A program made the position numbers and the translations under genes. Below are positions 28,654 to 34,460 of a DNA stretch of 64,000 nucleotides, piece after piece. Under the pieces are notes generated by a model. It was given only the letters and a program-made list of their open reading frames with translations, ran no database searches and was not told the origin of the DNA. This DNA comes from the human T2T-CHM13v2.0 reference genome, Homo sapiens, in assembly GCF_009914755.1 (NCBI RefSeq), contig NC_060929.1. One strand, given 5' to 3'. Position 1 is the stretch's first letter, and each line of letters begins with the position of its first letter.

Positions 28654-29458
28654 TGTATTTGTTTCTTAGGGCTTCCATAACAAATTACAATAAACTGGAT
28701 GACAAAAAAAAATAGCAGAAATTTACTCTCTCACCGTTCAGGAGGCCAGAGATCCAAATCCAGTTGTTGGCAGTCTTGATTTCCTGTAAGAGCTCTAGAG
28801 AAAAACCTTTTCTTGCTTTTTTTTTTTTGAGACAGAGTCGTGCACTATTGCCCGGGCTGTAGTGCAGTGGCACGATCTCGGCTCACTGCAACCTCCACCT
28901 CCCAGGTTCAAGCAATTCTCCCGCCTCAGCCTCCCGAGTAGCTGGGATTACAGGCACTTGCCACCATGCCCGGCTAATTTTTTGTATTTTTAGTAGAGAT
29001 GCGGTTTCACTATGTTGGCCAGGCTGGTCTCGAATGCCTGACCTTGTGATCCACCTGCCTGGGTCACCCAGAGTGCTGGGATTACAGGCATGAGCCACCA
29101 CGCCCGGCCTTCTTGCTGTTTTTAACTTTTGGTGGTTGCTGGCAAGTGTCAGTGTTCCATGGCTTATCAATCACTCCAAGTTCTGTCTCCATCATTCCAT
29201 GGCCTTCTCTCATGCACGTCACCTCTGATCTCTGTGTGTCTGTCTCCTTATATAAGAACAGTGATTGGATTCAGAGCCCATGAGGTCATATTGATATTGA
29301 GCATCAGTTACTCTCAATAGCCCATCCTAATCCTAATCCAATATGACCTCATGTTCCTCTGTAAAAACACCTATTAAAAAAAAAAAAGTCACATTCACAG
29401 ATAGGAGGGGTTAGGACTTGAACACATCTTTTCCAGAGACATAATTCAACCTATTACA
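28654..29458 (-). mobile_element. MLT1C-like MaLR LTR with a nested Alu and an internal templated insertion
   Basis: 'tgtatttgtttcttagggcttccataacaaattac' through 'ttaggacttgaacacatctttt..aattcaacctattaca'. TSD caaga/aaaga. Confidence 0.85.
28817..29109 (-). mobile_element. AluS-type SINE inside MLT1C
   Basis: Antisense Alu with TSD 'ttcttgct' on both sides. Confidence 0.95.
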
Positions 29459-30047
29459 AAAGACTACTTCATAGGTGCTCTTGTTCATCATCACTAAGTA
29501 CATTGTATCTCGTTGCCTCTCTTCGTAATAGTAGCAGTAATTGATGATCGATATCTGGATTCTTAATTCAATGTAAGTTGCAAAATTGTGATATACCAAT
29601 TTTATCATTTTGTATATGTATGTATGTGTGTTTCAAATATTTCTTATAATAAATAATGCTTTATACTATTCATTGCCCAGTAGAAGATATTTGTGATGAA
29701 GTAAATGAATGCTTGACTCTTTCTATTTATTTACCAGTGTCATTTACATTGGAATCATGGATTATTGTTGGTGCTGTATATGTGCTTGGAAAGGTTGTCT
29801 ATTTTCCATCTTTGGCATAATATTCTATACATGTCTATTAGATTAATCTGACTTAATAATATTTTTCAAATCATGCATGTCCTAATGAAATTTTGTCTAT
29901 TTGTTCTATCAATTACTCAGAGAGTATTGTGAAAATCTCCAAAGTTGTGAATTTATTTATTTGATTCTATCAGGTTTTACTTAAATATGTTAAAGATTTA
30001 TAATTATTTGCAAAAACTTTAAGGATTGCATGCTTCCTTGATATATT

Positions 30048-30228
30048 CATCAGTTACCCTCAATAGCCCATCCTAATCCTAATCCAATATGACCTCATGT
30101 GCCTCTGCAAAAACACCCTATTTCAAAAAAAAAAAAATCACATTCACAGATAGGAGGGGATAGGACTTGAACACATCTTTTCCAGAGACATAATTCAACC
30201 CATTATAAAAGACTACTTCATAGGTGCT
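30048..30228 (+). repeat. Local direct copy of 29302-29479
   Basis: Colinear from 'catcagtta.ctcaatagcccatcctaatcctaatccaatatgacc' to 'gactacttcataggtgct'. Includes ~21 bp beyond the LTR end. Confidence 0.95.
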
Positions 30229-30790
30229 TTTTTTCACATTAAATGGCCTTCTGCATTTTTGGTCATATAACTTGATTTAAAGACAAACGCTGGTTGATAT
30301 CAATATAGCCACACAAGATTTCTGACTAATGTTTGCATGGTATTTCTCACCATGATATTTTAACATCTGTTTATTTAAACACAGGTTTTTAAATATACCT
30401 CTTTGTCTTACCACAGTACGTCTCTAAATCAAACTTAAATATTATGTAAAAAATCATACTCTGTATTTTCATTTTCTCCTCATTCTATTATATACATTTT
30501 ATTTTTACATATGTCAAAAATTACACAAAAATATACAAAAACTGTGCAGTGAAATCACTTAAACTCATTTTAAACAATCATTGTTTAAATGGTTTTATAA
30601 ATAAAAGAAGTAATATATATGTTGAATAATAGAAATATTGAATAATTCCAGAAATGGCAAATATGTGGGAGCTCTCACATGTCCCCGATTAGACCCTCAG
30701 AGACTTGTACAATAATAACTAGCTCTCTAGCATGTATGTCATTGGAGACTCAAAATGGAGAGTGAAAACAGGGGAAAGAATATTTGAAGG

Positions 30791-32345
30791 ATAGTATTCC
30801 ATGGTGTATATGTGCCACATTTTCTTAATCCAGTCTATCATTGTTGGATATTTGGGTTGGTTCCAAGTCGTTGGTATTGTGAATAGTGCCACAATAAACA
30901 TACGTGTGCATGTGTCTTTATAGCAGCATGATTTATAATCCTTTGGTTATATACCCAGTAATGAGACGGCTGGGTCAAATGGTATTTCTAGTTCTAGATC
31001 CTTGAGGAATCGCCACACTGTCTTCCACAATGGTTGAACTAGTTCACAGTCCCACCAACAGGGTAAAAGTGTTCCTATTTCTCCACATCCCCTCCAGCAC
31101 CTGTTGTTTCCGGAATTTTTAATGATCGCCATTCTAACTGGTGTGAGATGGTATCTCGTGGTTTTGATTTGCATTTCTCTGATGGCCAGTGATGATGAGC
31201 ATTTTTTTCATGTGTCTGTTGGCTGCATAAATGTCTTCTTTTGAGAAGTTTCTGTTCATATGCTTTGCCCACTTTTTCATGGGGTTGTTTGTTTTTTTCT
31301 TGTAAATTCGTTTGAGTTCTTTGTAGATTCTGGATATTAGCCCTTTGTCAGATGAGTAGATTGCAAAAATTTTCTCCCATCCTGTAGGTTGCCTGTTCAC
31401 TCTGATGGTAGTTTCTTTTGCTGTGCAGAAGCTCTTTAGTTTAACTAGATCCCATTTGTCTATTTTGGCTTTTGTTGCCGTTGCTTTTGGTGTTTTAGAC
31501 ATGAAGTCCTTGCCCATGCCTATGTCCTGAATGGTATTGCCTAGGTTTTCTTCTAGGGTTTTTATGGTTTTAGGTCTAACATTTAAGTCTTTAATCCGTC
31601 TTGAATTAATTTTTGAATAAGGTGTAAGGAAGGGATCCAGTTTCAGCTTTCTACATATGGCTAGCCAGTTTTCCCAGCACCATTTATTAAATAGGGAATC
31701 CTTTCCCAATTTCTTGTTTTTGTCAGGTTTGTCAAAGATCAGATGGTTGTAGATGTGTGGTATTATTTCTGAGGGCTCTGTTCTGTTCCATTGGTCTATA
31801 TCTCTGTTTTGGTACCAGTACCATGCTGTCTTGGTTACTGTAGCCTTGTAGTATAGTTTGAAGTCAGGTAGCATGATGCCTCCAGCTTTGTTCTTTCAGC
31901 TTAGGATTGACTTGGCAATGCAGGCTCATTTTTGGTTCCATGTGAACTTTAAAGTAGTTTTTTCCAATTCTGTGAAGAAAGTCGTTGGTAGCTTGATGGG
32001 GATGGAATACTATGCAGCCATAAAAAATGTTCTTTGTAGGGACACGGATGAAGCTGGAAACCATCATTCTCAGCAAACTATTGCAAGGACAAAAAACCAA
32101 ACACCGCATGTTCTCACTCATAGGTGGGAATTGAACAATGAGAACACTTGGACACAGGAAGGGGAACATCACACACTGGGGCCTGTTGTGGGGTGGGGGT
32201 ATGGGGGAGGGATGGCATTAGGAGATATACCTAATATAAATGACGAGTTAATGGATGAAGCACACCAACATGGCACTTGTATACATATGTAACAAACCTG
32301 CACGTTGTGCACATGTACCCTAGAACTTAAAGTATAATAAAAAAA
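30791..32345 (+). mobile_element. L1PA4-like LINE with a 5' inversion (twin priming): inverted 30791-~32005, forward ~32002-32345
   Basis: Antisense ORF2 C-terminus (ORF 31134..31874) joined at 'gggATGGaatactat' to a sense 3' UTR. 'caccaacatggc' and 'taccctagaacttaaag' fit L1PA4-5. Confidence 0.95.
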
Positions 32346-33721: not shown

Positions 33722-33800
33722 GAAAGAATATTTGAAGGAATATCGGCTGAATGTTTTCCATATTTGATGAAAAGTATAAACTCAGAGATTAAAGACAAAC

Positions 33801-33911
33801 TCACCCCAAAGTGTCTCCATCATTCCATGGCCTTCTCTCATGCCCGTCACCTCTGTATCTTTGTGTGTCCGTCTCCTTATATAAGAACAATGATTGGATT
33901 CAGAGTCCATG
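33801..33911 (+). repeat. Local direct copy of 29171-29282 (MLT1C piece)
   Basis: 'tgtctccatcattccatggccttctctcatgc.cgtcacctctg...tataagaaca.tgattggattcagag.ccatg' occurs in both places. Confidence 0.95.
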
Positions 33912-34298
33912 TAGATCTAAGTCCTTTAAGGGATCATTTTGTTTCTACTTAAAGAACATTCTTTAAACTTCTTTTAAATTTCAGGTCTGTTGATAACCAA
34001 TTCCCTTTACTTTGATCTGCCGAAAGTATTTTTTTATTGACATTGAAAGATATTTTTGCTAGAATAAAATATGGCTTGGCAGTTGCTCTTTCCACTTTAA
34101 ACATGTAATTTCATTTTCTTCTGGCTTTTATAATTTCAGGTGAAAGGTCTATTAATTCTTATCTATGTTCCTCTGTTTCATGTGGTTTGTTTTTCCCCTC
34201 TACAGGTGTTGTAAATATTTTTTCTTGTCATTCATATTAAGATATTTTATTAATATTAGGCTTAGTGTATTTGTGTTATCTTATTCAGAATTTTTTGA

Positions 34299-34460
34299 TT
34301 GTCTTTAATCTCTGGGTTTATATTTTTCATCAAATATGGAAAACATCCAGCCAGTATTTCTTCAGACATTCCTTCCCCTGTTCTCACTCTCCATTTTGAG
34401 TCTCCAATGACATACATGCTAGAGAGCTAGTTATTATTGTACAAGTCCCCAAGGGTCTAA
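34299..34460 (-). repeat. Inverted-repeat partner of 30689-30791 + 33740-33798
   Basis: Hand alignment: 149/162 identical, no gaps. Confidence 0.95.

What the first reader, a model, noticed from the sequence alone, without database searches (positions are those of the whole stretch)
29171..34460. Complex templated-copy rearrangement (FoSTeS/MMBIR or Pol-theta-like) joining distant local pieces
Seen: with the later L1 removed, the old L1ME contains these inserts in order: an apparently inverted local piece (~30621-30670), a near-palindrome, a 162-bp inverted copy of 34299-34460, and a ~110-bp direct copy of 29171-29282. The L1ME then resumes at 'tgtagatctaag'. A separate direct copy of 29302-29479 lies at 30048-30228. 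The two direct-copy donors end and begin on either side of the same scar in MLT1C (~29280-29320). Junctions show short microhomology ('caa', 'tg'). Inference: a single serial template-switching event, older than the L1PA4 that inserted into it.
Basis: partly seen in the sequence, partly recalled or inferred. Interest (0 to 1): 0.7.

Follow-up and report, generated by a model that had tools for sequence, protein, structure and literature searches.

The report
Fossil DNA-break repair with copied patches
In a gene-free stretch of human chromosome 5, three short neighbouring pieces were copied into new places and a fourth was flipped, likely during one messy repair of clustered DNA breaks in a primate ancestor's germ line, and a jumping gene carrying DNA from chromosome 4 sits inside one of the copies; it is a known kind of accident with no sign of function.

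Summary
Three local copies (112 and 178 bp direct, 162 bp inverted) differ from their donors by 28/450 sites (6.2%), far less than from any repeat paralogue found. The 39-bp 'inverted piece' is a true inversion with no forward copy left. A ~50-bp scar of short templated bits sits where one donor ends and the other begins (chance about 1e-4 to 6e-4, post hoc).

No L1 lies at the chr4 source now. That pair gives an internal clock (5.6%) that cannot be told from the copies' age (P=0.64). So 'older than the L1' rests on nesting, not on divergence.

Donors that abut at one scar, and insert sizes of 110-180 bp, fit end-derived short insertions at clustered breaks (TST-jump / breakage-replication/fusion type, Pol-theta-like junctions) somewhat better than random serial FoSTeS/MMBIR. 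A two-step route, with the scar hairpin breaking later, remains open. No primate orthologues could be examined.

Verdict: new member of a known kind; no functional evidence; interest 0.33.

The parts
29171..29282 (+). Donor A (inside the old LTR); its right end is the left edge of the scar
29282..29331 (+). Scar, about 50 bp net insertion. Holds a 15-bp exact inverted copy of 29339-29353 (29279-29293, overlapping the left edge), a 7-bp stem with an 11-nt loop (29295-29319), a 7-bp direct repeat of the left flank, a 6-bp tandem repeat, and about 17 nt of unassigned origin
   Evidence: exact matches; spacer 49 here vs -1 or -2 in 9 of 9 well-anchored paralogues, of 22 examined; a 15-bp inverted match reached by 1 of 5000 shuffles; hairpin -18 to -20 kcal/mol, z about -5; no local source for the 17-mer at <=3 mismatches other than copy B'
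29302..29479 (+). Donor B; starts at the first base of the scar's inner loop and spans the LTR/LINE boundary
30048..30228 (+). Copy B' (direct), inserted in the old LINE with about 6 bp lost and no target-site duplication
30622..30632 (+). Junction filler holding a 9-bp direct repeat of 30638-30646
30633..30671 (-). Inverted native LINE piece (about 39 bp), no forward copy left
30672..30688 (+). 9-bp fold-back of 30663-30671 (8 of 9) plus an 8-nt filler that matches the forward strand of donor F at 34445-34452 in 7 of 8 (weak; could be chance)
30689..30791 (-). Copy F', left part (inverted copy of 34460-34358); its last 18 bp are the left target-site duplication
30791..32008 (-). Young L1, 5'-inverted part (twin priming; 12-bp stretch of L1 present in both parts, 7-bp overlap at the inversion point)
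   Evidence: 4.9-5.7% from the four paralogues aligned
32002..32363 (+). Young L1 3' end and A-rich tail
32364..33721 (+). 1.35-kb copy of G000:C4:45,309,592-45,310,943 (chr4), read as a 3' transduction; no L1 found in the 9.1 kb upstream of the source
   Evidence: 77 mismatches/1351
33722..33798 (-). Right target-site duplication (33722-33739, 18/18 identical to 30774-30791) and the rest of copy F' (to donor 34299)
33801..33911 (+). Copy A' (direct); the old LINE resumes at 33910 with 1-2 bp microhomology
34299..34460 (+). Donor F (old LINE), 390-550 bp right of the resumption point

Best explanation
Three 110-180-bp local pieces were copied into two nearby sites and a 39-bp piece was inverted, likely in one germ-line repair episode at three clustered breaks within about 1.2 kb, in which loose DNA ends would have copied or captured short stretches from neighbouring ends before rejoining. 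Inferred steps: (1) breaks at about 29282, 30047 and 30621/33910; (2) the end at 30047 took sequence starting at the right-hand end of break 1 (B, which already carried part of the scar), then rejoined its own partner through imperfect homology; (3) the end at 33910 took sequence from the left-hand end of break 1 (A), moved by a 6-bp microhomology to nearby F in inverted orientation, and rejoined through the flipped 39-bp piece; (4) break 1 was sealed with a Pol-theta-like scar of short inverted and direct templated bits. Shown by nesting: a twin-primed L1 with a 1.35-kb chr4 segment was inserted into the finished F copy. Its source L1 was probably never fixed on our lineage. Age inferred from about 6% pairwise divergence: roughly the ape / Old World monkey split (calibration recalled, not computed).
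For: Donor A ends at the scar edge and donor B starts inside it, with no overlap; chance 6e-4 (2-kb span) to 7e-5 (5.4-kb span) (post hoc). Both are in direct orientation, as left-end-to-right-end joins require. Sizes 112/162/178 bp match TST jumps (median 183 bp; 10.1101/835058, passages) and end-derived insertions (median 184 bp, tiling at origin, microhomology or untemplated junctions; PMC12807874 section 13). Scar parts of 6-15 bp, inverted and direct, from within 60 bp match Pol-theta TINS (3-30 bp, several rounds; PMC7165422 passages). Divergences are homogeneous (P=0.26). No target-site duplication or poly(A) at B' and none seen at the F'/A' chain.
Against: Only two abutting donors, with a 19-bp gap; simple abutment without reference to the scar has P=0.06. 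The one adjacent pair (F', A') is strand-coordinated under the end-fragment inference, which MMBIR also predicts. The finished scar is a strong hairpin that could have stalled or broken later, and a pre-existing quasi-palindrome at its base also fits a fork-based short-range switch. Pol-theta tracts are rarely over 10 bp, so it cannot alone explain the 110-180-bp copies. Power to detect different ages is low (48% for two-fold). No outgroup genome was seen. No large duplication or foldback, which the cancer examples carry, was found in the window.
Confidence: 0.45

Rival explanations
1. One serial template-switching pass at a stalled fork or break-induced replication bubble (FoSTeS/MMBIR; 'local n-jump').
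For: All pieces can be strung on one path. Mixed direct and inverted copies, low copy gain and microhomology at some junctions match local n-jumps (PMC7025897 passages). Ages are homogeneous. The quasi-palindrome at the scar base suits a fork switch.
Against: B' contains scar sequence, so the polymerase must re-copy its own product. Random switching does not predict donors that meet at the scar (PMC12807874 section 13). Two junctions have no exact microhomology.
Confidence: 0.25
2. Two or more steps: a short-range template switch first made the scar, whose 15-bp-stem hairpin later stalled replication or was cut in its loop, releasing A and B ends for the later insertions.
For: Hairpin -18 to -20 kcal/mol, z about -5. 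B' starts at the first base of the inner loop and A' ends at the stem base. B' carries the right half of the scar.
Against: Needs a rare event twice at one spot. No age gap is visible, though power is low and the scar itself has no clock.
Confidence: 0.2
3. The L1 insertion and the rearrangement were one event: L1 ORF2p made the breaks or inserted into the repair intermediate.
For: Ages indistinguishable (6.2% vs 5.6%, P=0.64). The L1 sits inside one of only 452 copied bases. Its target has no TTTT/AA within one mismatch. L1 expression yields flank inversions and local templated inserts (3 and 3 cases; PMC11702581 passages).
Against: A clean 18-bp target-site duplication inside F' needs F' as finished duplex. 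One base (equivalent to 34359) is changed in both duplicates but not in the donor or 19 of 21 paralogues; it lies at the edge, so this is weak. Only 1 of 10 rearrangement breakpoints has an endonuclease-like motif, background 28%.
Confidence: 0.07
4. Independent tandem duplications followed by deletions, or RNA-templated patches (class 1 TSIP), left these remnants.
For: The C/B' junction has tandem-duplication geometry; germ-line templated insertions are common (PMC5110952 passages).
Against: Needs several independent breakpoints to fall on the same scar. No target-site duplication, poly(A) or endonuclease site at the copies.
Confidence: 0.03

Closest known systems
Tandem short template (TST) jumps / short insertions of breakage-replication/fusion (10.1101/835058; PMC12807874)
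   Same: 110-180-bp inserts, chained at a junction, donors next to break ends and abutting, mixed microhomology and filler
   Different: Germ-line, ancient and confined to about 2 kb; only three inserts; no megabase duplication or foldback seen
Local n-jumps / FoSTeS-MMBIR templated insertions (PMC7025897)
   Same: Local copy-and-paste with direct and inverted segments
   Different: Donor ends meet at a scar rather than being scattered, and one copy includes newly made scar sequence
Polymerase-theta templated insertions, TINS (PMC7165422)
   Same: The scar and fillers: 6-15-bp inverted and direct repeats of flanking DNA, multi-step
   Different: The three long copies exceed the usual tract length
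Short-range template switches in great apes (PMC7954356)
   Same: In-place inversion and short inverted fills (their median 12 bp, maximum 128 bp)
   Different: Templates here lie 0.7-4.6 kb away in today's sequence; that paper leaves small-scale non-local switching unresolved
L1 3' transduction with twin priming and an absent source element (PMC4862182; PMC11702581)
   Same: 18-bp target-site duplication, 5' inversion, L1 tail followed by unique DNA from another chromosome; source locus without L1 (their class 1: 13 macaque, 9 orangutan, 1 chimpanzee cases)
   Different: Non-canonical endonuclease site, terminal A-tail of at most about 8 nt, no canonical AATAAA at the chr4 end; a template switch between RNAs is not excluded

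Membership tests
Locally templated insertion cluster | Copy closer to the local donor than to family paralogues | tested here: met
Locally templated insertion cluster | No target-site duplication or poly(A) at the inserts | tested here: met
   about 6 bp lost at B'; junction sequences
Locally templated insertion cluster | All copies of one age / one branch | tested here: inconclusive
   homogeneity P=0.26, power 48% for two-fold; no orthologues
TST jumps / breakage-replication/fusion insertions | Insert size about 0.1-1 kb, chained | tested here: met
   112, 162, 178 bp; F' and A' chained
TST jumps / breakage-replication/fusion insertions | Donors tile next to a DNA end | tested here: met
   A and B meet at the scar, P 7e-5 to 6e-4 post hoc; two tiles only
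TST jumps / breakage-replication/fusion insertions | Inserts enter both strands within a chain | tested here: inconclusive
   one adjacent pair, same strand by inference; uninformative
TST jumps / breakage-replication/fusion insertions | Adjacent parallel breakpoints bounding larger duplications | tested here: inconclusive
   each end of break 1 is used twice, but no larger duplication in the 64-kb window
FoSTeS/MMBIR | Microhomology at each switch | tested here: inconclusive
   6 bp at F'/A', 1-2 bp at A'/LINE, imperfect at B'/LINE, none exact at LINE/B' and filler/F'; about 3% drift since the event blurs junctions
FoSTeS/MMBIR | Templates scattered with gaps or overlaps | tested here: not met
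   A and B abut at the scar
Pol-theta TINS | 3-30-bp direct or inverted repeat of flank near the break | tested here: met
   15-bp inverted, 7- and 6-bp direct in the scar; 9-bp repeats at the inversion
Pol-theta TINS | Dependence on POLQ | not testable with these tools
   ancient event
L1 3' transduction | L1 tail, unique DNA from another locus and target-site duplication around both | tested here: met
L1 3' transduction | Source L1 directly upstream at the donor locus | tested here: not met
   no L1 match in 9.1 kb upstream on chr4; absence is a described class
L1 3' transduction | Canonical endonuclease site and terminal poly(A) | tested here: inconclusive
   no TTTT/AA within one mismatch; tail of at most about 8 nt
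MLT1C / L1ME / L1PA4 subfamily names | Match to the subfamily model | not testable with these tools
L1 body is 4.9-5.7% from four close paralogues

The most novel reading that the evidence does not exclude
This is a germ-line, evolutionarily fixed, kilobase-scale fossil of the cancer-type 'short insertions from broken DNA ends' process. One copy would start where an unfinished end-extension stood, so it would record a repair intermediate, and the transducing L1 may have entered in the same episode or soon after. Such fossils could then be mined genome-wide to test end-capture against MMBIR in the primate germ line.
Probability: 0.2. Interest if true: 0.55.

Novelty: new member of a known kind. 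Interest (0 to 1): 0.33.

Why it matters
There is no gene or annotated element here (nearest enhancer 42167-42744, per the hub annotation), so no function is implied. The value is as a base-resolved germ-line example of a rearrangement class described mostly in tumours, cultured cells and patients, whose mechanism (serial template switching vs capture from broken ends) is in dispute. The donor geometry here bears on that dispute, and the chr4 transduction supplies a built-in clock and a clear prediction for primate assemblies. One case cannot settle the question; a genome-wide collection could.

Tried and rejected
Independent repeat insertions: rejected. Segmental duplication elsewhere: none among the scored candidates; one search returned only the locus itself. 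Single-paralogue tests of the inversion were non-significant in 8 of 8 loci, and the first profile did not cover that part. It was resolved only with 12 further short paralogues and a position-restricted test; 2 of the 16 sequences (L080, L087) were mis-anchored there, kept and dropped. L019 was dropped from the polarising set (poor anchor; 21 of 22 used). A local source for the scar's 17-mer: none at <=3 mismatches in 64 kb other than copy B'. A GC-biased or deamination signature in F: donor-only and copy-only changes are balanced (5 vs 3); dropped. The 7-bp match just upstream of the LINE/B' junction as the switch point: the product keeps the recipient's bases, so it was not used directly. 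L1 endonuclease sites at breakpoints: 1 of 10, background 28%. Sibling transductions: the only full-length match is chr4 (5 of 5 candidates scored). Earlier scan findings were not available. Literature: five answered searches. By titles and abstract starts none described this locus or fixed primate clusters of this geometry; this is not an exhaustive search. Supplements were not read.
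Full report
Observation. Self-alignment of the window confirms three non-family local copies. A (29171-29282) is copied directly at 33801-33911. B (29302-29479) is copied directly at 30048-30228. F (34299-34460) is copied inverted and is split into 30689-30791 and 33722-33798 by a later insert. In the 64-kb window only two other pairs reach 88% identity over 75 bp or more with low-complexity filtering: a tandem repeat and a young-L1 fragment.

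The copies come from the local donors. Genome-wide DNA searches rank the local partner first (40 candidates scored in each). Against 22 LTR paralogues compared pairwise, the best scores were 57.5 for A' and 130.5 for B', against 176.5 and 230.5 for the local donors. B' also spans the LTR/LINE boundary and part of a scar unique to this locus. For F, donor and copy share 20 departures from the majority state of 21 LINE paralogues in 114 scorable columns (48 ambiguous columns set aside), with 5 donor-only and 3 copy-only changes; the best paralogue is 68% identical.

The inverted piece. Single-paralogue tests failed (8 of 8 non-significant). With 16 short paralogues, the reverse complement of 30618-30676 scored 222.5 against the bases just upstream of the LINE resumption point. 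Shuffles gave mean 133 and maximum 179 (p=0.001), the forward strand gave 133.5, and it was the best of 860 sliding controls. The profile places 30669->30639 at positions 262-292 and 33909 at position 300. So about 39 bp of native LINE were flipped with little loss and no forward copy kept. It is flanked by a 9-bp local repeat and by a 9-bp fold-back plus an 8-nt filler; the fold-back is not a stable hairpin.

The scar. Nine of nine well-anchored LTR paralogues (of 22) lack the roughly 50 bp present between 29281 and 29331. The scar holds an exact 15-bp inverted copy of 29339-29353 (reached by 1 of 5000 shuffles), a 7-bp stem around an 11-nt loop, short direct repeats and about 17 nt without a local source. 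As single-stranded DNA it folds at -18 to -20 kcal/mol, z about -5. Donor A ends at its left edge and donor B starts at the first base of the inner loop. Random placement of three donors gives this with probability 6e-4 to 7e-5 (pattern chosen after the fact). Mere abutment of two donors, ignoring the scar, has P=0.06.

Junctions. F'/A': both templates read CAATCA (6 bp), with two extra bases in the product. A'/LINE: 1-2 bp. B'/LINE: imperfect homology over about 12 bp. LINE/B' and filler/F': no exact microhomology. At B' the host LINE lost about 6 bp and has no target-site duplication, so B' is a repair patch rather than a retroposed insert.

The later insert is more than an L1. Between identical 18-bp duplicates (30774-30791, 33722-33739) lie an inverted L1 part (30791-32008), a sense 3' end (32002-32351) with a 12-bp internal duplication typical of twin priming (compare PMC11702581 passages), and 1.35 kb that match chr4:45,309,592-45,310,943 (77 mismatches/1351). 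No L1 match was found in the 9.1 kb upstream of the chr4 source, only Alus. Source loci without L1 are a described class (PMC4862182 section 14). The chr5 target lacks a canonical endonuclease motif and the final A-tail is at most about 8 nt, so an RNA template switch cannot be excluded.

Timing. Mismatches: A 8/110 (global alignment; 6/109 local), B 7/178, F 13/162; homogeneity P=0.26; pooled 28/450 = 6.2% (95% CI 4.3-8.7). The chr4/chr5 pair gives 75/1342 = 5.6% (4.5-6.9); Fisher P=0.64. The L1 body is 4.9-5.7% from four close paralogues. Power to see a two-fold difference between F and A+B is 48%. The L1 is younger than F' by nesting, and one edge base shared by both duplicates hints at a time gap, but the gap is small or unmeasurable. 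With recalled calibrations (human-macaque about 6.5%, human-marmoset about 11-12%), the events fall near the ape / Old World monkey split.

Mechanism. Shown: local templating, the inversion, the scar anatomy, the donor geometry, the nesting of the L1. Inferred: that these arose at three clustered breaks in one episode. My best model (0.45) is that loose ends at 30047 and 33910 each took 110-180 nt from an end of the break at 29282, one of them also from nearby F, before rejoining their own partners, with Pol-theta-like fillers. This explains why both donors end at the scar and why both are direct. Sizes and tiling match TST jumps (10.1101/835058, passages) and the end-derived insertions of PMC12807874 (section 13 read), which argues that tiling is incompatible with random MMBIR switching. 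Rivals: one serial FoSTeS/MMBIR pass (0.25; PMC7025897 passages); scar first, with its hairpin breaking later (0.20); L1-coupled (0.07); unrelated duplications (0.03). Against my model: only two tiles, an uninformative strand test, Pol-theta tracts rarely over 10 bp (PMC7165422 passages), and a hairpin that gives the two-step model a real basis.

Comparison and verdict. Every component belongs to a described class. Short-range switches are catalogued in great apes, but small non-local ones are left unresolved there (PMC7954356 passages). Class 2 TSIPs are germ-line break patches from distant templates (PMC5110952 passages). Five searches (listings only for unread papers) showed no description of this locus; supplements were not read. 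The region is gene-free repeat DNA with no sign of function. It is a well-preserved new member of a known kind, useful as a test case once primate orthologues are aligned. Interest 0.33.

Noticed in passing
   Followed up: yes
window 59771-59837 and 60128-60193: 67-bp, 94% identical direct repeat flanking an Alu and a (TA)n run; unusually long for a target-site duplication.
   Followed up: no
window 62518-62927: Inverted 104-bp L1 piece (91% to a young paralogue) fused to a sense L1 3' end (81%); looks twin-primed with about 590 bp missing at the inversion.
   Followed up: no
window 20258-20455: Tandem repeat of roughly 75-85-bp units with internal palindromic motifs.
   Followed up: no
window 36045-36241: Several overlapping imperfect palindromes, up to 124 bp at 79%.
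   Followed up: no
window 34299-34460 vs its copy: All 13 differences between donor F and its copy are transitions, against 44 of 77 in the chr4/chr5 pair; unexplained, post hoc.
   Followed up: partly
window 1052-3798, 5527-7140, 13898-16664: Three older L1 pieces, 74-76% alike, two of them forming inverted pairs.
   Followed up: no
window 48546-48699 and 38980-39078 / 40419-40511: Older local direct duplications (77% and 75% identity).
   Followed up: no
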